Assembly: GCA_965116815.1 (NCBI GenBank) | Contig: OZ220722.1 | Location: forward strand, 671,050 to 735,049 | Reading direction: 5' to 3' | DNA length: 64,000 nt | Origin: Candidatus Poribacteria bacterium | GTDB lineage: Bacteria > Poribacteria > WGA-4E > WGA-3G | Part shown: positions 44,166 to 55,499 of the stretch, piece after piece | Position numbering within the stretch: the first letter of the stretch is position 1 | Layout of the letters: each line of letters starts with the position of its first letter | Notes under the pieces: model-generated | What the model saw: the letters and a program-made list of their open reading frames with translations, nothing else | Told to the model about the DNA's origin: nothing | Databases searched by the model: none | Made by a program: the position numbers and the translations under genes

Positions 44166-44630
44166 ATGACGACAGCCTTGGAAATCGAAAATATCTCGCC
44201 TGATAGCACGTTGGAAGCCTGTGCTCGTCAGGTGATTGTGAGTTATTTTCAAAAGATGATGTCCTACAAGGAGGGTGCCAAGGACGGAACGGATATTGAA
44301 TTTGTCCACGAGATGCGTGTCACTTCGCGTCGCTTACGCGCTGCCATGGACAATTTCGCTGATTGCTTTCCGGAAAAACCCTTCAAGAAATACTACAAGA
44401 AGATAAAAGCGATGACTCGAACCATGGGAGCCGTGCGTGACTTGGATGTCCTTATCGCTCGTTTTCAGAGCGAATTGGTTACCCTGACTGAAGCGGAACA
44501 GGCGGACATTCGAGGATTAATCGAACATTTACAGCAGAAGCAGGAAGATGCTCGAAAACCGATGCTGACGCTCTTTGCCAAACTGGAAGAAACCGATTTT
44601 GAGACCAAGTTTTTGGAATTCTTTATGTAA
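44166..44630 (+). CDS. CHAD-domain protein, N-terminal half.
   Basis: FVHEMRVTSRRLRAAMDNFADCF...MGAVRDLDVLIARF is the CHAD helical repeat signature. Its stop overlaps the next start by 1 nt (TAATG). Confidence 0.55.
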   Translation: MTTALEIENISPDSTLEACARQVIVSYFQKMMSYKEGAKDGTDIEFVHEMRVTSRRLRAAMDNFADCFPEKPFKKYYKKIKAMTRTMGAVRDLDVLIARFQSELVTLTEAEQADIRGLIEHLQQKQEDARKPMLTLFAKLEETDFETKFLEFFM

Positions 44631-45202
44631 TGGAGAACCGGTATACGGAGAGGGACTTGAAAGTCACTAACCCATCTCATCGAACCGCAAGGTATAATCA
44701 AAAAATGGCAAAGGTGCACAAGGTCATCGGCGTTGCGCCGAAGCAGAATTATCACGAGAATGCACGCATTATTCTCCCGCAAAAGGTGGAGGAGGTCTAC
44801 ACGTGGGAGCCGTTCATCCGTGATGAAGCGCGGCGCGAAGAACTCCACAACATGCGGATTTCGATTAAACGCCTCCGGTATACGATGGAAATTTTTCGTG
44901 CTGCTTATCAGCTACCAAAGATATATGCTAAAGAGGCTTCAACAACTTATAACGAACTCCTTACGGTGATCGTTGATTTGCAAGAGATACTCGGTGATAT
45001 TCACGACTCTGATGTCGTTTTGGAAGTTTTAACCGATTATGCATGTCAGTCGGGATGTGAAATTTCAGCACAAGGTGTTGCTACGCTTATTGATCGGACG
45101 AGGGAAGCCCGTAAAGCGGATTACAAAGTATTTCTGAAAAAATGGGAGCAACTGTCCACAACAGGTTTCAAACAGAAGTTGCTATCATTCTTGGCATCAT
45201 AA
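44630..45202 (+). CDS. CHAD-domain protein, C-terminal half (second CHAD repeat).
   Basis: LHNMRISIKRLRYTMEIFRAAYQ...LQEILGDIHDSDVVLEVL is a second CHAD-like H.{2}R...R(R/Y)...D.DV repeat. Confidence 0.55.
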   Translation: MENRYTERDLKVTNPSHRTARYNQKMAKVHKVIGVAPKQNYHENARIILPQKVEEVYTWEPFIRDEARREELHNMRISIKRLRYTMEIFRAAYQLPKIYAKEASTTYNELLTVIVDLQEILGDIHDSDVVLEVLTDYACQSGCEISAQGVATLIDRTREARKADYKVFLKKWEQLSTTGFKQKLLSFLAS

Positions 45203-46280: not shown

Positions 46281-47963
46281 ATGTTAGTAGATGATAACAG
46301 AGAAGAACATCGGATGATGATTTTCGGTAACGATAGTCGTCTCGTCCAAGACCAGTTAATCGTGGAAAGCAAGGCAAAGTCGGAGGGGATCCTTGCGCAG
46401 AAGGTTCACGCGGATTCCTATACCGTCACGCTGTATGTATTACTGAAGGATTACGGGCTCACACCCGTCTTTCGCATCAAGCCGCGCATCCGTTTCCACC
46501 GCTCTAACTACGATAATCTCTCTTCAAGCGCACCCATCCGATATAGCCTTGACGACATCATCCACTTCGCTGAGTTGAAACGCGGTGTTGACTTGACGGA
46601 AAAGATTGACGATGTCAAACTCGCGGAAATCCTTGGGGACGCGCCTGCCCTCAAGGATGTAACGGATGATCCAGCACTGCACCTGGTCTCACAGCGCGAT
46701 GTGTCGCTCCGAAATCCGCCGTTCAAAACCAAGACTAAGATTTTTGGGCAAAGTGAAGATGAAGGTGTAGAAGAGGGAGGCATCCGTATAGGAACCTTCC
46801 TTGATGCCCTGAATCAACCGAAACGCACCGAGCAAATTTTCAAACGGTTTGCGAAAGGAAGTGAATTCGCTCGCGATTTGCGGGAGGCTTTAGCACCCTA
46901 CGAAGATTTTGAGTTTCAATTCGGACTCTATTCCCGATATGAACGACGAGATTGCATCTTGGCGAATGGGGACGAAGAGACCAGCGGGAATTACCGAGCA
47001 ACATTCGATCCTTGGACAGCACTCGGATATATCCGAACTGCTGCTGGTGATACACAGCAGTTCCAGATTTTAATGCATGAACGCGGGACACGATGGGAAC
47101 ATAAAATTATGTTGGAGCAGCTGGATACTCCGACGCTTGATCGCCTCGCGACAGAGATTCCGAGGCTTCGCTGCGAGTACCTAATTGGGCGAGTCTTATC
47201 CAAAAGCCAGACTGCCTTGACACGCTTGGCTGAACTTCGTCAATCCCAGTTAAATCTGACAACCGATTTACACACCGGATATACACTCCGACTTGAAATA
47301 CCTGTTTCTCAAAAACGGTTTTCTGTCATAGAACACCGCCGGAAATTGCGCCAGACATTTAACGGCGGCGGTGCTTATCGCCTCCATCCACTGAATGGTG
47401 AATTTGTCGAGAAACATCATAACATGGCGAAGGGTATCCGAGATGGGATCGTCTGGACCTTGGATTCCGTGGACCTATTTACAGGACAACCGGCTTTAGA
47501 GGAGAACGATGACGGGTTTCTTATCATCAAAACGCCGCATCAAAATAAGTTTGTCGTCCGTTCTGCCGAAGAGCTTCGCGAACGTCTCCCGACAAACGGG
47601 TTTGAGAAGTGTTGGAATGAAGCAATTGATATGGGCGGCTATACTGTCCTCAACCAGATGAGTGGTAGGGTCTATATGGTGAGTTACGGACGGAGAAATA
47701 CTGGCAGCATCCATGAGGGCAATAGTACGAAAGAGGATGTCGCGCATTATCTTTCAATTGACTACCTCGGCGTAGATCCTACACGTGTTGGCGTTTCACG
47801 TTTTGGGGTACCTGCCCATGTCCAGCAGAGTTTCTTTGACAGACTTTTCAGTAGACAACCTGTATCGCCGCTCTTTAGCCAGTTGATCCAAACCGAGGCA
47901 CAGGTCCTTGCAGAAATAAAAACGCTTGCGCGGTACTGTAGGGAAAAGTTAGAGATTTTATAA
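46281..47963 (+). CDS. Hypothetical protein (560 aa), with no recognisable domain.
   Basis: Long ORF with good coding character, lying immediately upstream of the ATPase/TOPRIM pair. Confidence 0.45.
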   Translation: MLVDDNREEHRMMIFGNDSRLVQDQLIVESKAKSEGILAQKVHADSYTVTLYVLLKDYGLTPVFRIKPRIRFHRSNYDNLSSSAPIRYSLDDIIHFAELKRGVDLTEKIDDVKLAEILGDAPALKDVTDDPALHLVSQRDVSLRNPPFKTKTKIFGQSEDEGVEEGGIRIGTFLDALNQPKRTEQIFKRFAKGSEFARDLREALAPYEDFEFQFGLYSRYERRDCILANGDEETSGNYRATFDPWTALGYIRTAAGDTQQFQILMHERGTRWEHKIMLEQLDTPTLDRLATEIPRLRCEYLIGRVLSKSQTALTRLAELRQSQLNLTTDLHTGYTLRLEIPVSQKRFSVIEHRRKLRQTFNGGGAYRLHPLNGEFVEKHHNMAKGIRDGIVWTLDSVDLFTGQPALEENDDGFLIIKTPHQNKFVVRSAEELRERLPTNGFEKCWNEAIDMGGYTVLNQMSGRVYMVSYGRRNTGSIHEGNSTKEDVAHYLSIDYLGVDPTRVGVSRFGVPAHVQQSFFDRLFSRQPVSPLFSQLIQTEAQVLAEIKTLARYCREKLEIL

Positions 47964-48008: not shown

Positions 48009-49238
48009 ATGATACAATATCTTAAAGTTGAAGGACTCAATAACCGGTTTGATGGCGAATTTGAGTTTAATGAAGACTTAAACATTTTTACTGGAGCAAA
48101 CGGTTCAGGTAAAACAACATTGTTGAAACTTATTTGGTATCTAATCAGCGGCAATTTGGAGCGAATTCTTCTTGAAATTCCGTTTCGTTCGGTTTCGCTT
48201 CGGACGGATCTATTTGCTTTGAGCATAACTCGAGTTAATTCGGATGAGGTGCAGTTTGTTAGTAAGAAAAATACCTTCTCAAGATCGGTAGATTTTACTA
48301 TCGCTGCGAATTCCGAAACTGGAAACCTAGAGAAACAAACGGATGCAGAAGAAATAGATGAACTTAATACCGATATAGCTAATGCAATGAAGAGTAGTCT
48401 ATTTTTCCCAACCTTCAGAAGGATTGAAGGAGGCTTTTCTACTTCTCATATTCCCAACAAGTATATTCCGATTGAGCCGAGCACCACTAGAAGAAAGGTA
48501 TATAGTTATCGGATGGCAGAAGATCTTCGAGAGGCAATATCAGAGCTCACGGATGTGGTATCGGTTCATGAACATAAGTTCATTGTTTCAATCTCAACAG
48601 ATGATATATCAGCTTTGTTGCCACAAAAATACGCCAATATTTCCCAAAATATAGACAAACTTCAAGTAGAGTCGTCACAAGAAATCACACAGAAGATTAA
48701 AGATTATTTTGATAATGAAAAAGAGTCTGAAGTCAAGGAATCTCAAAAAGCACGACTTGTGTTAGACAAGATTCAAAAAAGGGTTGAGCAGGTTACTTCT
48801 AACCGAGAGATCCTGCTTAAACCATTTTCTGTGCTATCTGATCTTATTCAAAACATTTTGCAATATAAATCAGTTAATGTCTCTGGACAGATTGTGCGTG
48901 ACGATGACACAGAAGGAATTACTTTTGATGAAGGTGCAGAAGGAATTACGCTTAGTGCAACAAAGGGAGCAATATCTTCTGACAAACTCTCTTCTGGTGA
49001 AAAGCAAATGCTCAGTTTTTTGTGTTACAACGCTTTTTACAAGGATACGGCTATCTTCATTGATGAACCTGAGTTAAGTCTCCATGTCGATTGGCAAGGG
49101 CTTCTCCTATCAACTTTGCTTGAGCAGGCAACAGGAAATCAGTTTTTCGTTGCCACCCACTCACCTTTCATCTATACTATGTATCCTGACAAGGAGTTTA
49201 TGTTAGATGATACTCGGGGATATCAAGGAGAGACTTAA
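48009..49238 (+). CDS. ABC/SMC-type AAA ATPase (AAA_15/AAA_21-like).
   Basis: Walker A FTGANGSGKTTLLKLI. C-terminal signature/Walker B region LSSGEKQMLSFL...AIFIDEPELSLH...FVATHSP. Lower GC than the neighbours. Confidence 0.7.
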   Translation: MIQYLKVEGLNNRFDGEFEFNEDLNIFTGANGSGKTTLLKLIWYLISGNLERILLEIPFRSVSLRTDLFALSITRVNSDEVQFVSKKNTFSRSVDFTIAANSETGNLEKQTDAEEIDELNTDIANAMKSSLFFPTFRRIEGGFSTSHIPNKYIPIEPSTTRRKVYSYRMAEDLREAISELTDVVSVHEHKFIVSISTDDISALLPQKYANISQNIDKLQVESSQEITQKIKDYFDNEKESEVKESQKARLVLDKIQKRVEQVTSNREILLKPFSVLSDLIQNILQYKSVNVSGQIVRDDDTEGITFDEGAEGITLSATKGAISSDKLSSGEKQMLSFLCYNAFYKDTAIFIDEPELSLHVDWQGLLLSTLLEQATGNQFFVATHSPFIYTMYPDKEFMLDDTRGYQGET

Positions 49239-50020
49239 TGCCAACGCCGAATCCGATGACGGTGGAGCATTTAGTTGGTGTTCTGCGGAGGTCTCGCAAA
49301 CCGAGCATTGTTGTTGAGGGAGATGATGATGTAGTCATCTATCGGGAATTAGCCAAGCGAATCGGAATACTTGAAGTTGTTTTACGACCTTCTGGTGGAA
49401 GGGAAAAATTACTCCAAGTTTATGAGCGCAGAAGTGAATTTATCCAAATCCCTGTTGCTTTTATTGCAGATCAGGATATGTGGTTATTTTCTGGGATTGA
49501 GCCAGGTTACGAAGATGTTATTTGGACTAACGGATATAGTATTGAAAACGACTTGTATTCCGATGCAGGCTTAGAACGTCTTTTGGATGAAAGTGATACA
49601 CTTGAACATCAACAAATTCTGGATTCTATCAGCGTGTGGTTTGCATTTGCCGTTGAGGAGTATTTAGCAGGAAACGCTCCAAAGCTTGATCTGCATTGTG
49701 ACGAAATGGTTCCACCTGGTAAAACTGAATTGGATGCCGACTTTTGCGTACGTCAAAGTTTTCGCACTCCTAATACAGAGCGAGTGCAACAAATCAGATC
49801 CGCATATCAACTGTTACTCAGAGGAAAACAACTTTTCCAGTTGTTAGTTCGTTTCCTGAGCAAGCCCATCCACGGTTTTGAGAAAGCAAGCCTTAACGAT
49901 TATGCTCTGTACAATTTGGCACTCAGAATGCCGGAACAGTACCCATTGCTGGATGGATTAATGGAAAAAGTAAAGCAAAAAATTGCAGCGCAACAACCAC
50001 TTCCTGATACACCTCAATAA
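49238..50020 (+). CDS. TOPRIM-like (OLD/DUF4435-like) protein, partner of the upstream ATPase.
   Basis: IVVEGDDDVVIY (Toprim E-G...D motif) followed by AFIADQDMW (DxD-like). Its start overlaps the ATPase stop by 1 nt. Low GC. Confidence 0.45.
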   Translation: MPTPNPMTVEHLVGVLRRSRKPSIVVEGDDDVVIYRELAKRIGILEVVLRPSGGREKLLQVYERRSEFIQIPVAFIADQDMWLFSGIEPGYEDVIWTNGYSIENDLYSDAGLERLLDESDTLEHQQILDSISVWFAFAVEEYLAGNAPKLDLHCDEMVPPGKTELDADFCVRQSFRTPNTERVQQIRSAYQLLLRGKQLFQLLVRFLSKPIHGFEKASLNDYALYNLALRMPEQYPLLDGLMEKVKQKIAAQQPLPDTPQ

Positions 50021-50043: not shown

Positions 50044-50871
50044 ATGCCAAACCGCAGAAAAGTCCTTATCACCGGCGCATCAGGCTATGTCGCCGGACGG
50101 ATGCTCCCAGAATTTCGCCAACGTTATGAACTCGTACTGCTGGACGTGAAGACCACGAATCGGCAGGGAGAGGAAGTCGAAGGGATTCAGATTGCTGAAC
50201 TCACGGATCCTGACCGAAACGCATACCGTCATCATTTTGAAGGCGTTGACGCTGTCGTCCACTGTGCCTTTAAGGGTGGTAGTTTTGAGAACGAGCTTGC
50301 CAACGTTCAGATGGCATACAACCTCTACCAAACCTGCGTTGAAACCGATGTCCGGCGCGTCGTCGTTTGTAGTTCTAACCACGCCGCCGACTATTATGAA
50401 CGTCTCATCTGGGCAGATAAGTGGGATGTGGTGACACCGGAAATGCGTCCGCTCTCCGATAACTTCTACGGGTGGGCAAAAGAGGCGTATGAGCACCTCG
50501 GTTTTGTCTTTGCAACGGGACACGTTGACGGTAAGAAATTACAGAATATCCAGTTGCGTATCGGTGGACCGCGCGAGACAGATATGGCGAATTCTTCAGC
50601 AGACGATTTGAAGGCGATGCGCCGCGGACTCGGCGCGTATTTGAGCGTCCGAGATCAGGTCCAACTCTTCGTCAAGAGCATTGAGACGGAAAACATAGAG
50701 GACGAAAACGGGATTCCGTTCCAGATTTTCTACGGCATCAGTGATAACTCACATAAGTTCTGGAGTATCGCCAACGCACGGAAAGTAATAGGCTATGCAC
50801 CAGAGGACGACAGTCAACTTCGCTTTGCCGATCGGTTGGCAGAATTGTTAGAGCAGGCGAAAGATAAGTAA
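50044..50871 (+). CDS. NAD-dependent epimerase/dehydratase family (extended SDR) protein.
   Basis: VLITGASGYVAGRM is a Rossmann GxxGxxG motif. About 275 aa. Confidence 0.7.
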   Translation: MPNRRKVLITGASGYVAGRMLPEFRQRYELVLLDVKTTNRQGEEVEGIQIAELTDPDRNAYRHHFEGVDAVVHCAFKGGSFENELANVQMAYNLYQTCVETDVRRVVVCSSNHAADYYERLIWADKWDVVTPEMRPLSDNFYGWAKEAYEHLGFVFATGHVDGKKLQNIQLRIGGPRETDMANSSADDLKAMRRGLGAYLSVRDQVQLFVKSIETENIEDENGIPFQIFYGISDNSHKFWSIANARKVIGYAPEDDSQLRFADRLAELLEQAKDK

Positions 50872-50895
50872 TTCCCTCCTTTAAGGATTCCCACA

Positions 50896-51918
50896 ATGCC
50901 GAACTTTACAGCAGAGGAACTCACCGAAATTTGCCGTAACGTCTTTCAAGAATTAAATATCCCGGCAGCCGAAGCGGAAATCGTGACCCGCTCTATGGTG
51001 GATGCTAACCGCGTCGGACACGATTCACACGGCGTTATTCACCTCCCAAAATATGTCCGAGAATTGGAGGAAAGATTAATCCAGCCCGGTGCGCCAACAG
51101 AGACGCTACACGAATCTGCCTCCATCGCAGTGTTAGATGGGAATTGGGGGTTCGGTCCCGTAATCGCGACGCGCGCCGTTGAATTGGCAATCCAGAAGGC
51201 GAAACAGACGGATCTTAGTTCTGTCGCTGTGTCACGCTGCAATGAGGTGGGCAGGTTAGGTGGATACGCGTGCCTCGCTGCAGATGCAGGGATGATCGCA
51301 CTGCTCATGGCGAACGACCATGGCGGTGGCACATGTGTCGCACCGCACGGCGGCGTTGAAGGCAGACTCTCTACAAATCCGCTCGCGTGTGCAGTGCCGA
51401 TTGAGGGGCAGGATCCGATTGTACAGGATATGTCGACGAGTGTTGTCGCATCGGGGAAGATTCGGGTCAAACAGCATCGGAATGAAGCAGTGCCGTACGG
51501 ATGGCTCATTGACGCGGAAGGCGCGTCAACCACTGATGCAGACGACTTCTATGGCACACCACCTGCCGCCATATTACCGTTCGGTGGAATTGCTGCACAC
51601 AAAGGATTCGGGTTGAGTGTCATTGTTGACATCTTGTCGGGGGCACTTACGGGAGCAGGGTGTAGCAGGAGTGAGGATGCCCGCGTCGGCAATGGGTTGT
51701 TCGTGCTGGTGATTAACGTTGCGAGTTTTAGAGGGTTTCCGGGGTTCAGTGCGGAGATAGAACGGTTTATTGCGTATCTCAAATCGGCGAAGCGCATTGC
51801 TGGTGTTGACGCAATTCGGATGCCGGGTGAACGCGGTTGGGAAGAGCAACGCAGGCGGGAACGGGACGGTATTCCGATAGACGCAGAAACATGGACACAA
51901 ATTCAAACTCTTTTCTAA
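50896..51918 (+). CDS. Malate/L-lactate dehydrogenase family 2 (Ldh_2) oxidoreductase (ureidoglycolate/sulfolactate dehydrogenase-like).
   Basis: RVGHDSHGVIHLPKYV...GNWGFGPV...GGIAAHKGFGLSVIVDILSGALTGAG is the Ldh_2 family pattern. Confidence 0.75.
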   Translation: MPNFTAEELTEICRNVFQELNIPAAEAEIVTRSMVDANRVGHDSHGVIHLPKYVRELEERLIQPGAPTETLHESASIAVLDGNWGFGPVIATRAVELAIQKAKQTDLSSVAVSRCNEVGRLGGYACLAADAGMIALLMANDHGGGTCVAPHGGVEGRLSTNPLACAVPIEGQDPIVQDMSTSVVASGKIRVKQHRNEAVPYGWLIDAEGASTTDADDFYGTPPAAILPFGGIAAHKGFGLSVIVDILSGALTGAGCSRSEDARVGNGLFVLVINVASFRGFPGFSAEIERFIAYLKSAKRIAGVDAIRMPGERGWEEQRRRERDGIPIDAETWTQIQTLF

Positions 51919-53213: not shown

Positions 53214-55499
53214 TCACGGACGAAACAGGGCTTCGTCAATTTCAGTGTTCAGCGTAACGTCGGTGATAAAGACTCGTCGGTATTCACCGTTCTTTGTCGT
53301 ACGATAATGCGGGATTTTAATGCCATCTACGTCCCGATAATCGTCAAGGAAGGCTACCACGTTTTCCTCTTCTCCACCTATCTCAACGTCATAACTAAAC
53401 TGGATTACGTAGTGGGTTTCTTTACTAATGAAGATTTTTAATTTTTTCCCGGAAGGCTGCGTAACGAGGAGAACGGATGTAGGTTCACCCTTTACCTGTT
53501 CTGTTCCTATGTATTGAACGGGAACATTGCTTTTCGAGAGGGTTGCCAAAAGCCACATAGGTTCTCGGAAAAGACTGTCCTTAAAGAAGCTAACATAAAA
53601 CTTAGTCTCCTCCGGTGGAACAGGTTTGACCTCTCCGGCTGCTATCACAAACACCGATTCTCCATCAAAGATTAGGTGGTTATCCTTCTGGGCGTGAATA
53701 CCCCAATCGCTGCGGACCCTGTTGGCATCAAAGTATGTTTTCGCCGGTCCCTCGTCCTGCATGGTTCCGTCCGGAAGGTGTTCAAAACTCTCAGATTCCA
53801 TCACAATGCTTTTCACTGCTTCGAGTTTCTCAAGTCCACCGTGCGCAGCGATAGCCGCGCTGATAATTTCTTTGACATCGGGTCCTACATTTTGCGCACC
53901 GTCAGGCGGATCGGAAGGTGTTCTTATAGGCGCATCGACGGGTTTCGCGAGATTTTCCGCCACCAATTCCGCAACAGCAGATTCAACATCAAAACCGCCG
54001 AGGCTCGCCTTTCGGATAATTCCCTCACTGTCAATTAAAAAAGCTGATGGAATGCCCCACACCCCGTATAGCGTCCTTAACTGCCGACTTTCATCCCAGT
54101 AGTGAATCCATCCAAGTCCTTCTTTTTCAATATATTCCTCAAGTGGTTGCTTTGACCTATCCAAGCTGATACCGATGATTTGGAAACCCTGATCCTTGTA
54201 TGCTTCATAGGTCCGCTTCACTTTGGGCATCTCGGCAATGCAGGGTCCACACCATGTTGCCCAGAAGTCCAGAAGCACAATTTGCCCTCGGAAGTCTTTC
54301 AAAGAAAGTTCTTCACCTTTCAAATTCGTTACCTGAAAATCTGGGGCAGGTTTACCGACCCACTCACTTGGATGTGTCCTGGCAGGCTTAATTGGTTCAT
54401 TTTTTTGAGAAGTTGTTTCCTGTTTCAGGAGTTTTGTCGCGGGTATCGACTGTGATTGCGAACCTGTCTCAGATGTTTTGGCAGGCTTCGCGAGATTTTC
54501 CTTCACCAAGTCCTCAACGGCATGTTCAAGCGCGTGTCCACGGAGGTTCGTCTTGCGGATGGTCCCCTCACCGTCAATCAGGAAGGTAGACGGAATTCCC
54601 CGCACCTTATACATATTACTAACTTTACCGCTGTTGTCCCAATAGTGAACCCATCCGAGTTCCTTTTTTTCAATGTATTCCTCAAGGGGCGTTATGGACC
54701 TGTCTAAACTAATACCGATAATCTGAAACTTCTGATCTTTATACTTTTCGTAAGTCCGCTTAACGTTCGGTATCTCAGCGATGCAGGGTCCGCACCACGT
54801 TGCCCAGAAATCCAGCAGTACAACCTGCCCTCGGTATTTTTCCAACGAGAGTTCGTCACCTTTCAGATCCGTTACCTGAAAGTCAAGTGCTGGTTTACCA
54901 ATCCACTCACTGGGGGGCGTTCCCATTCCCTGACTTGCCCCTGGCGGTTTCGGTAATTCACCCATTCGATCGGCTTTATCCTGTTCAAGGAGTCGCTTCG
55001 CAAATTTTGCTTGCGATCGTTTACCATACTTCGGGTGATCTATCAATTTCTGGTAAGCACCGTCTGCTGCATCGTGATTACCAAGTTTATCGTACGCCAA
55101 TCCTAAATCTAACAGGCAACGTTCAACATAACGAGCCTCTGGATAATTCCTGACGACTTTTTCAAAGGCTTCGATGCCTTCTTCAACACTCCCCAACTGC
55201 ACTAAGGCGTTGCCGAGAAGGTGATAGACTTCATCCACCCGTTTGTATTCTGGGTGCGCCGCAACAAAATCTCTCGACTTCTCAACTAACCGCTCTAACT
55301 CTTCCTGTGTCTTCTGCTTTTTGAGATTTTTAGAAATTGCCTTGATTTCCTGATACTTGTAAGCTGCTTTTATCGAAGCCGCATCAACGAAGTTCGCACA
55401 AAAACCGATTAGCACAAGGCTTATGAGTGCGCAAACGAGATGTGCACGGAAGCCTCTATTTCCGCTTTGTTGTGAATGTCTTTCATTTCGGGAGTACAT
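53214..55499 (-). CDS. Membrane-anchored protein with TPR-like repeats, two tandem TlpA/ResA-like thioredoxin domains and a C-terminal domain of unknown function.
   Basis: N-terminal TM helix LVCALISLVLIGFCANF. TPR-like helices. The FWATWCGPCIAE redox motif appears twice (LLDFWATWCGPCIAEIPNVK and LLDFWATWCGPCIAEMPKVK). Confidence 0.75.
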   Translation of the reverse strand: MYSRNERHSQQSGNRGFRAHLVCALISLVLIGFCANFVDAASIKAAYKYQEIKAISKNLKKQKTQEELERLVEKSRDFVAAHPEYKRVDEVYHLLGNALVQLGSVEEGIEAFEKVVRNYPEARYVERCLLDLGLAYDKLGNHDAADGAYQKLIDHPKYGKRSQAKFAKRLLEQDKADRMGELPKPPGASQGMGTPPSEWIGKPALDFQVTDLKGDELSLEKYRGQVVLLDFWATWCGPCIAEIPNVKRTYEKYKDQKFQIIGISLDRSITPLEEYIEKKELGWVHYWDNSGKVSNMYKVRGIPSTFLIDGEGTIRKTNLRGHALEHAVEDLVKENLAKPAKTSETGSQSQSIPATKLLKQETTSQKNEPIKPARTHPSEWVGKPAPDFQVTNLKGEELSLKDFRGQIVLLDFWATWCGPCIAEMPKVKRTYEAYKDQGFQIIGISLDRSKQPLEEYIEKEGLGWIHYWDESRQLRTLYGVWGIPSAFLIDSEGIIRKASLGGFDVESAVAELVAENLAKPVDAPIRTPSDPPDGAQNVGPDVKEIISAAIAAHGGLEKLEAVKSIVMESESFEHLPDGTMQDEGPAKTYFDANRVRSDWGIHAQKDNHLIFDGESVFVIAAGEVKPVPPEETKFYVSFFKDSLFREPMWLLATLSKSNVPVQYIGTEQVKGEPTSVLLVTQPSGKKLKIFISKETHYVIQFSYDVEIGGEEENVVAFLDDYRDVDGIKIPHYRTTKNGEYRRVFITDVTLNTEIDEALFRP

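What the first reader, a model, noticed from the sequence alone, without database searches (positions are those of the whole stretch)
48009..50020. Low-GC two-gene module (ABC-type AAA ATPase plus TOPRIM/DUF4435-like protein), a candidate PARIS/OLD-like antiphage system
The two ORFs overlap by one nucleotide (TAATG). The first carries Walker A, an ABC signature LSGGE-like motif (LSSGEKQ) and Walker B/D-loop motifs, as in AAA_15/AAA_21 ATPases. The second has an N-terminal IVVEGDDD plus downstream DxD arrangement, compatible with a Toprim nuclease. The segment is visibly more AT-rich than the ~50% GC of its surroundings, consistent with horizontal acquisition. The gene order, sizes and translational coupling resemble AriA/AriB (PARIS) and class-2 OLD systems. 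AriA is usually longer, so this may be a divergent variant.
Basis: partly seen in the sequence, partly recalled or inferred. Interest (0 to 1): 0.7.

Follow-up and report, generated by a model that had tools for sequence, protein, structure and literature searches.

The report
PARIS-type phage defence gene pair
This is a two-gene anti-phage system of the known PARIS type (a sensor ATPase plus an RNA-cutting nuclease) in a sponge-symbiont (Poribacteria) chromosome; the system itself is ordinary, but it sits in a lineage-wide hotspot where its sensor and nuclease parts recombine in many combinations.

Summary
Two + strand ORFs (48009-49238, 409 aa; 49238-50020, 260 aa) overlap by one base (TAATG). 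All the quoted motifs are present. The segment is the lowest-GC 2 kb of the window (0.398 vs 0.483, z = -6.6).

It is not an OLD, Gabija, Septu or AbiL system.

The host is Candidatus Poribacteria. The module lies between the same two chromosomal genes in about 40 species-level genomes. One metagenome contig has that site empty, and three genomes carry two or three tandem modules there. Related pairs occur in sponge Caldilineaceae, always AT-richer than their flanks. The ORF1 middle, and the ORF1 tail together with ORF2, behave as two cassettes that assort independently.

Verdict: a new, divergent member of a known system. Function is inferred, not shown.

The parts
48009..49238 (+). ORF1, AriA-like ABC/SMC-type sensor ATPase (409 aa)
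48093..48119 (+). Walker A (G29-T37, K35, equivalent to AriA K39)
   Evidence: Read from the translation. Invariant in A2. Aligned to the AriA Walker A. K39A abolishes trigger binding in E. coli AriA (PMC11464382).
48189..48968 (+). Hypervariable middle of ORF1 (about aa 61-320): helical hairpin plus two low-confidence loops; proposed trigger-sensing cassette
   Evidence: Segments 81-120, 141-180, 221-260 and 281-320 are only 14-30% identical across 77 homologues, against 75-94% for the ATPase motifs. Nucleotide identity to otherwise 80-90% identical genomes falls to about 0.55 over 48150-48900. The AF2 model has helices 197-235 and 241-284 and pLDDT<50 loops at 138-171 and 286-324. Basic cluster R161 R162 K163 R168 lies in the first loop (sequence).
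48987..49073 (+). ABC signature LSSGEKQ (aa 327-333) to Walker B AIFIDEPE (aa 348-355); the D-loop and H-loop follow
   Evidence: Sequence. Invariant in A2. Aligned to AriA 366-395.
49236..49240 (+). TAATG stop/start overlap (translational coupling), with AAGGAG at 49225-49230
   Evidence: The same 1-nt overlap, or a 4-nt overlap, is seen in most of the 80 related loci.
49238..50020 (+). ORF2, AriB-like DUF4435/Toprim nuclease (260 aa)
49307..49552 (+). Toprim catalytic core (aa 24-105): E27, D31, D78, D80, E103
   Evidence: These align in register with AriB E26, D30, D88, E90, E122 (residue list from PMC11464382). Invariant or at least 90% conserved in A1.

Best explanation
The pair is a PARIS-family (AriA/AriB) abortive-infection module carried in the chromosome of a Candidatus Poribacteria sponge symbiont.

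By homology with the E. coli B185 system, the likely mechanism is as follows. ORF1 is an ABC/Rad50-like ATPase with a helical insertion. It forms an oligomeric scaffold that holds the ORF2 Toprim nuclease inactive. A phage protein (in E. coli, small acidic anti-restriction proteins such as Ocr) binds the variable, loop-rich surface of ORF1 in an ATP-dependent way. ORF2 is then released, dimerises, and cuts host tRNA anticodon stem-loops in a metal-dependent reaction. Translation stops, and so does phage production.

Shown here:
- gene architecture and translational coupling;
- intact ATPase and Toprim catalytic motifs;
- closest sequence and fold relatives are AriA and AriB;
- strict co-occurrence of the two genes in 80 loci;
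- presence/absence and copy-number variation at one chromosomal site;
- independent assortment of the ORF1 middle and of the ORF1-tail-plus-ORF2 block.

Inferred only: complex formation, the nature of the trigger, tRNA as the target, and defence itself.
For: Family assignment:
- AAA_15/AAA_21 plus DUF4435; PADLOC AriA 7e-28 and AriB 1.1e-10.
- AriA is the best solved relative by 17-18 orders of magnitude in E-value.
- AriB is the top fold match for ORF2, followed by OLD Toprims.
- all five Toprim acidic positions are kept.

The two genes form a unit:
- in all 80 loci the ORF1 and ORF2 homologues lie side by side. The ATPase gene lies just upstream in all but the tandem array L022, where the best hits came from two modules. 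Most have a 1- or 4-nt overlap.
- The Poribacteria flanking genes are absent from the Caldilineaceae, Desulfobacterales and Pyrinomonadaceae copies.

Accessory, immune-like behaviour:
- GC is lower than the flanks in every host.
- the site is empty in L087.
- tandem arrays in L020, L022 and L062.
- hypervariable ORF1 segments with sharp identity boundaries.
- the E. coli AriA pore/trigger residues are likewise poorly conserved across PARIS clades (PMC11464382).
Against: - The sequence link between ORF2 and E. coli AriB is weak (profile E = 0.32; hhalign probability 55% to a Pseudoalteromonas AriB), and Pfam DUF4435 covers only the N-terminal half.
- The global Foldseek TM-score to AriB is low (0.33-0.38).
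- The middle of ORF1 (aa 150-318) does not align with AriA by sequence. It is modelled partly at low confidence, so the IS1 and IS2 insertions that mediate trigger binding and hexamer assembly in E. coli AriA could not be confirmed.
- The E. coli AriA-AriB salt-bridge residues are mostly not conserved: AriB R28/R31 correspond to D29/V32, and AriA E404 corresponds to G364.
- The module has no obvious promoter of its own. It sits 45 nt and 23 nt from housekeeping-type neighbours in a co-directional gene string.
- There are no functional data for any member of this clade.
Confidence: 0.8

Rival explanations
1. It is a PARIS-like ATPase plus Toprim defence pair with a different output. ORF2 would nick or degrade DNA, as OLD and GajA nucleases do, or would cut a different RNA. 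ORF1 might form a different oligomer from the AriA hexamer.
Against: AriB aligns over 184 residues, against 131-138 for the three closest OLD Toprims, so part of the DUF4435 helical domain is shared. The split two-gene architecture with DUF4435 is what defines PARIS. Basic residues (R55, K57) lie where AriB K60/K64 hold the anticodon loop.
Confidence: 0.13
2. It is a domesticated or housekeeping ATPase-nuclease pair, for example in RNA processing or DNA repair, kept at a fixed core-genome position rather than acting as an immune system.
For: It lies at a fixed position in a co-directional string of metabolic genes in about 40 species. There are no mobile-element genes, tRNAs or repeats around it. 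At least one archaeal OLD-family ATPase is reported to act in the cell cycle rather than in defence (PMC12796447, abstract seen).
Against: The site is empty in a syntenic relative. Tandem copy number varies. Divergence is extreme and mosaic while the flanks stay 75-95% identical. GC is atypical in every host. Relatives occur in unrelated phyla without the same neighbours.
Confidence: 0.04
3. It is a selfish toxin-antitoxin-like addiction cassette. ORF2 would be the toxin and ORF1 the antitoxin, and the pair would persist because losing it is harmful, not because it defends against phage.
For: PDB depositors name AriA an 'antitoxin'. The Pfam AAA_21 description refers to a type IV TA system. 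The two genes are tightly coupled.
Against: E. coli AriB alone is only mildly toxic and needs AriA to become active (PMC11464382), which is not antitoxin logic. Diversification of the ATPase surface suggests it senses external ligands.
Confidence: 0.03

Closest known systems
PARIS (AriA/AriB) of E. coli B185 P4-like satellite; structures 8UX9, 8V45-8V49
   Same: Two co-directional, overlapping genes. The upstream gene encodes an ABC/Rad50-like ATPase (AAA_15/AAA_21) with a helical insertion. The downstream gene encodes a DUF4435 Toprim nuclease. All ATPase motifs and all five Toprim acidic residues are conserved. AriA and AriB are the best sequence and fold matches. The trigger-side surface of the ATPase is poorly conserved in both.
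   Different: Both proteins are smaller (409 vs 464 aa; 260 vs about 308-316 aa). There is about 23% structural-alignment identity for ORF1 and 13-16% for ORF2. The middle of ORF1 cannot be aligned by sequence. The salt-bridge residues that tether AriB in E. coli are not kept. The module lies in a chromosomal hotspot of an uncultivated sponge symbiont rather than in a phage satellite. The sensor and effector parts recombine here, whereas ariA and ariB are reported to co-evolve clade by clade (PMC11464382).
OLD-family nucleases (class 1 P2 Old / Ts OLD 6P74; class 2 GajA of Gabija)
   Different: In OLD and GajA the ATPase and Toprim are fused in one polypeptide. Class 2 systems need a UvrD-like GajB partner. 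Here the two domains are separate genes, ORF2 carries the DUF4435 helical domain, and no helicase gene is adjacent. Pfam OLD-like_TOPRIM is below threshold (E = 0.063).
Septu / retron-associated PtuA-PtuB
   Different: The PtuB partner is an HNH nuclease. ORF2 is a Toprim/DUF4435 protein and gives no PtuB hit.
AbiL (AbiLi ATPase + AbiLii RloB-like Toprim)
   Same: A two-gene ATPase plus Toprim-like arrangement. ORF1 hits AbiLi at 1.7e-12.
   Different: ORF2 gives no AbiLii/RloB hit. The AriA models score 10-16 orders of magnitude better for ORF1.

Membership tests
PARIS (AriA/AriB) | Two adjacent co-directional genes, with the ATPase upstream of the nuclease | tested here: met
   48009-49238 and 49238-50020 overlap by 1 nt. 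In all 80 related loci the two homologues lie side by side, the ATPase gene just upstream in all but the tandem array L022, where the best hits came from two modules.
PARIS (AriA/AriB) | AriA: AAA_15/AAA_21 ABC ATPase with intact Walker A/B, signature, D-loop and H-loop | tested here: met
   Pfam AAA_15 77.9 bits (cut-off 32.1) and AAA_21 69.1 bits (cut-off 27). PADLOC AriA 7e-28. The motifs are invariant in the family alignment.
PARIS (AriA/AriB) | AriA is the closest characterised relative of the ATPase | tested here: met
PARIS (AriA/AriB) | AriA insertions IS1 (trigger binding) and IS2 (four-helix bundle enabling the hexamer) | tested here: inconclusive
PARIS (AriA/AriB) | AriB: DUF4435 protein with Toprim acidic residues (E26, D30, D88, E90, E122 in E. 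coli) | tested here: met
   DUF4435 scores 38.2 bits against a cut-off of 27, covering profile positions 2-116 of 238. PADLOC AriB 1.1e-10. E27, D31, D78, D80 and E103 are in register and conserved.
PARIS (AriA/AriB) | AriB fold, including the helical domain C-terminal to the Toprim (dimerisation) | tested here: inconclusive
PARIS (AriA/AriB) | E. coli B185-specific AriA-AriB salt bridges (AriB R28/R31 with AriA D401/E404); a property of the model system, not a family-defining feature | tested here: not met
   ORF2 has D29 and V32 at the aligned positions. ORF1 keeps D361 (equivalent to D401) but has G364 at E404. Across 75 loci these positions vary without charge complementarity.
PARIS (AriA/AriB) | Phage defence triggered by anti-restriction proteins; tRNA cleavage by released AriB | not testable with these tools
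   This needs experiments. The host is uncultivated.
OLD family, class 1 / class 2 (Gabija GajA) | ATPase and Toprim fused in one polypeptide; class 2 has an adjacent UvrD-like helicase | tested here: not met
   The two domains are separate ORFs. The neighbours are an uncharacterised 560-aa protein and an NAD-dependent epimerase. OLD-like_TOPRIM E = 0.063 is below the cut-off.
Septu (PtuA/PtuB) | HNH nuclease partner PtuB | tested here: not met
   ORF2 hits only AriB in PADLOC, plus a Csm3 hit at E = 0.025. There is no HNH or PtuB hit.
AbiL | AbiLii / RloB-type partner | tested here: not met
   ORF2 gives no AbiLii or RloB hit. The ORF1 hit to AbiLi (1.7e-12) is far weaker than its hit to AriA.
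ABC transporter nucleotide-binding domain | Closest relatives are transporter NBDs, with a permease partner | tested here: not met

The most novel reading that the evidence does not exclude
In Poribacteria this site may work as a modular immune locus. A sensor cassette (the ORF1 middle) and an effector cassette (the ORF1 C-terminal tail plus ORF2) are exchanged independently. Several deeply diverged types (about 48% identity) persist across host clades at the same chromosomal position. That pattern would fit balancing or diversifying selection fed by tandem arrays and by exchange among sponge symbionts of different phyla. It would contrast with the published view that ariA and ariB co-evolve and are rarely swapped. 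It would also give a natural panel of PARIS variants for mapping trigger specificity.
Probability: 0.35. Interest if true: 0.6.

Novelty: new member of a known kind. Interest (0 to 1): 0.4.

Why it matters
PARIS has been studied almost only in E. coli satellites. This is a compact, divergent clade from an uncultivated sponge-symbiont phylum, and no paper in the searched library mentions PARIS in Poribacteria. It extends the family's range and shows which features hold at about 15-25% identity: the ATPase motifs and the five Toprim acidic residues. It also shows which do not: the tethering salt bridges and the sequence of the helical insertion. The comparative pattern offers natural chimeras for testing which part of AriA reads the phage trigger and which part must match AriB. 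That pattern comprises one hotspot carrying zero, one, two or three modules, with the sensor middle and the effector block assorting independently.

Tried and rejected
- Direct phmmer of ORF2 against PDB found nothing. A family profile was needed, and even then AriB reached only E = 0.32. The fold searches settled the assignment.
- NCBIfam gave only sub-threshold hits for ORF1 and none for ORF2.
- The look-up of encoding contigs returned only a 1.2-kb Logan contig.
- I looked for the E. coli AriA gene with a 156-aa fragment. There was no hit in 'phages'. In 'plasmids' the best was a 51%-identical Pseudoalteromonas PARIS (L082). hhalign against it gave only local alignments, which did not resolve IS1 and IS2.
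- I tested for charge-swap covariation between ORF1 position 364 and ORF2 position 29 as evidence of a conserved interface. There was no complementarity.
- A search for att-like direct or inverted repeats at the module borders found only chance-level matches. There are no tRNA genes in the window.
- Promoter-like and terminator-like sites were no more frequent than in shuffled sequence, and none lies in the 45-nt upstream gap.
- The upstream 560-aa gene was considered as a third component. It was rejected because it evolves like the host flanks and is absent from the non-Poribacteria loci.
- Two literature searches for PARIS in sponge symbionts or Poribacteria found nothing relevant.

Full report
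**1. Observation**

ORF1 is 48009-49238 (+, 409 aa) and ORF2 is 49238-50020 (+, 260 aa). The ORF1 stop TAA (49236-49238) shares its last base with the ORF2 start ATG (49238-49240), with AAGGAG 7 nt upstream. GAGG lies 8 nt upstream of the ORF1 ATG.

All quoted motifs are present.
- ORF1: Walker A G29-ANGSGKT-T37, signature LSSGEKQ 327-333, Walker B AIFIDEPE 348-355, D-loop SLHVD 357-361, H-loop H384.
- ORF2: IVVEGDDD 24-31, DQD 78-80, IEND 102-105.

These residues are invariant or nearly so in alignments of 27 homologues each.

The AT-richness is real and is not a chance fluctuation.
- Module GC is 0.398, against 0.483 +/- 0.016 for the non-overlapping 2012-nt tiles among 620 tiles taken every 100 nt (z = -6.6).
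- Only one of the 620 tiles is lower, and that tile overlaps the module.
- Tetranucleotide distance gives z = 4.5.
- GC3 is 0.33-0.35, against 0.47-0.57 in the neighbouring genes.

**2. What the proteins are**

ORF1:
- It matches Pfam AAA_15 (1.5e-21) and AAA_21 (8.6e-19). The transporter model ABC_tran matches only around Walker A.
- In PADLOC the three best models are AriA (7e-28, 6.5e-23, 2.7e-21), followed by many PtuA models.
- Against all PDB sequences the best hit is AriA of the PARIS complex (8UX9/8V45) at 1.6e-23. The next families (retron Ec78 PtuA, GajA) sit near 1e-6.
- A family profile raises AriA to 3.6e-28, against 1.6e-10 for the next.

ORF2:
- It passes Pfam's DUF4435 threshold (38.2 bits vs 27), but only over its N-terminal half. 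It hits only AriB in PADLOC (1.1e-10).
- Its sequence link to E. coli AriB is weak. There is no phmmer hit, the profile E-value is 0.32, and hhalign probability is 55% to a Pseudoalteromonas AriB.
- Even so, the alignments put the catalytic residues in register.
- Burman et al. list the AriB Toprim residues as E26, D30, D88, E90 and E122 (PMC11464382). ORF2 has E27, D31, D78, D80 and E103.

**3. Context and relatives**

The host is Candidatus Poribacteria, a sponge-symbiont phylum. The neighbouring genes are ordinary: chorismate synthase, a split CHAD protein, a ROK kinase, an unannotatable 560-aa protein ('up560'), then the module, then an NAD-dependent epimerase and an Ldh_2 dehydrogenase, all co-directional. 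The window has no tRNA genes. There are no border repeats and no promoter-like site in the 45-nt upstream gap.

I retrieved 80 genomic loci that encode an ORF2 relative.
- In every one an ORF1 homologue is adjacent. It lies just upstream in all but the tandem array L022, where my best hits came from two modules. Most show a 1- or 4-nt overlap.
- In about 40 Poribacteria genomes the pair lies between up560 and the epimerase, exactly as here.
- In sponge-associated Caldilineaceae, a Desulfobacterales MAG and a Pyrinomonadaceae MAG, the pair occurs without those flanks.

So the two genes are the unit, and up560 is not part of it.

In all loci the module is AT-richer than its flanks, for example 0.47-0.49 against 0.60-0.65 in Caldilineaceae. 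A metagenome contig (L087) has up560 followed by the epimerase after only 76 nt. That is an empty site. Three genomes carry tandem arrays of two or three PARIS-like modules at the same site (L020, L022, L062).

The site is therefore a PARIS hotspot with presence/absence and copy-number variation. It is not a recent insertion in this particular genome.

**4. Mosaic evolution**

Across 77 homologues, ORF1 is 75-94% identical in the ATPase motif blocks (aa 21-60, 121-140, 321-400). It is only 14-30% identical in aa 81-120, 141-180, 221-260 and 281-320.

Nucleotide identity between the window and near-syntenic genomes follows this mosaic.

| Comparison | Flanks | ORF1 first 150 nt | 48150-48900 | ORF2 |
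|---|---|---|---|---|
| Window vs L002/L003 | 0.8-0.9 | 0.83 | about 0.55 | about 0.9 |
| Window vs L024/L049 | 0.8-0.9 | 0.85-0.87 | about 0.5 | about 0.58 |

In the second comparison, identity returns sharply to flank level at the ORF2 stop.

Pairwise divergence of ORF1 and of ORF2 is almost uncorrelated (Spearman 0.14 for the variable part, 0.32 for the core).
- Window vs L002: ORF2 90%, ORF1 variable part 29%.
- L002 vs L073: ORF1 variable part 86%, ORF2 47%.

One ORF1 type is found with four ORF2 types, and one ORF2 type with four to six ORF1 types. The last roughly 20-50 residues of ORF1 co-vary with the ORF2 type. So the exchange breakpoint lies in the conserved ATPase C-lobe.

The three main ORF2 types are about 48% identical to one another. 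Each occurs in both major host clades, whose up560 proteins are about 76% identical. Within a type, ORF2 identity tracks host identity (Spearman 0.5-0.6). This fits old, maintained types, or differential loss from tandem arrays that hold different types together. I cannot separate these two explanations here.

Two caveats apply. These are MAGs. The analysis uses identity clustering, not formal recombination tests.

**5. Mechanism (inferred from the E. coli system)**

In E. coli, six AriA subunits scaffold three AriB subunits. ATP-dependent binding of Ocr or Ptr1/2 to AriA releases AriB. Released AriB dimerises and cleaves tRNA-Lys/Thr/Asn, which arrests translation (PMC11464382; PMC12409363).

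The hypervariable ORF1 segments flank the conserved FFPTFRR motif. They map roughly onto AriA 85-130 and beyond 160, the region holding the central and radial pore residues R116/R119 and R168/R172. ORF1 has a low-confidence loop at 138-171 with a basic cluster (R161 R162 K163 R168) (sequence). Burman et al. also found the pore residues poorly conserved, and proposed that they have evolved to recognise different triggers.

I therefore propose that the ORF1 middle is the trigger-reading cassette, and that ORF2 together with the ORF1 tail is the effector cassette.

Not supported by homology:
- The tethering salt bridges. AriB R28/R31 and AriA E404 correspond to D29/V32 and G364, with no charge covariation.
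- The presence of IS1 and IS2.

The oligomeric state and the tethering mode may therefore differ from E. coli PARIS.

**6. Comparison and verdict**

The pair meets the operational definition of PARIS: an AAA_15/21 ATPase plus a DUF4435 Toprim protein, adjacent on the same strand. Its closest solved relatives are AriA and AriB.

It fails the definitions of the alternatives.
- OLD/Gabija: needs a fused polypeptide, and for class 2 a helicase partner.
- Septu: needs an HNH partner.
- AbiL: needs an RloB-type partner.
- ABC transporter: the closest relatives would be transporter NBDs.

It is a new, divergent and compact member of a known kind. The 'horizontal acquisition' inference needs qualifying: the composition is foreign and the site is polymorphic, but the module is long resident at a fixed hotspot.

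Interest is moderate. The system itself is expected. The hotspot and the independent assortment of the sensor and effector parts are the points worth following up.

Noticed in passing
window 46281-47963 (+): A 560-aa protein directly upstream has no Pfam, NCBIfam or PADLOC match. It is conserved at 74-93% in syntenic Poribacteria. It is 50-56% identical in other metagenome contigs (L089-L101), where neither the module nor the epimerase was detected.
   Followed up: partly
L020 5702-10599; L022 6964-10907; L062 4778-8747: The same up560/epimerase site carries two or three tandem PARIS-like modules of different types. These include 314-aa AriA-like genes about 100 aa shorter than ORF1, one of them (L020 5702-6646) without an adjacent AriB-like gene.
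   Followed up: partly
L087 7675-7750 (Ga0209754_1000019): This is an empty site. The up560 stop is followed after 76 nt by the epimerase start, with no ATPase or Toprim gene between them.
   Followed up: yes
window 50871-50896, compared with L003, L006, L007, L008, L011, L017, L044, L046, L056, L078, L079: The epimerase and the Ldh_2 dehydrogenase are adjacent in the window. In many related genomes they are about 1.5-6 kb apart, which suggests a second variable insertion spot just downstream.
   Followed up: no
window 44166-44630 and 44630-45202 (+): A CHAD domain is split over two ORFs that overlap by one base. The first covers Pfam profile positions 5-128 and the second covers 166-227. This may be a frameshift or a genuine split gene.
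   Followed up: no
L027, L031, L036, L037, L048, L054, L055, L063; L046 and L071: A further ORF2 type occurs in genomes labelled Poribacteria at loci without the up560/epimerase flanks. One isolate (3e89c7d8) has two copies, one syntenic and one elsewhere.
   Followed up: no
L026-L081 (Caldilineaceae, Desulfobacterales and Pyrinomonadaceae loci): Nearly all retrieved relatives of this PARIS clade come from Poribacteria or Caldilineaceae MAGs (the closest ones match sponge-symbiont genomes). The module is 4-24 GC points below its flanks in each, which hints at a shared AT-rich donor pool or exchange between phyla.
   Followed up: partly
window 53214-55499 (-): A 761-aa protein combines TPR repeats with two AhpC/TSA-redoxin (thioredoxin-like, WCGPC) domains.
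   Followed up: no
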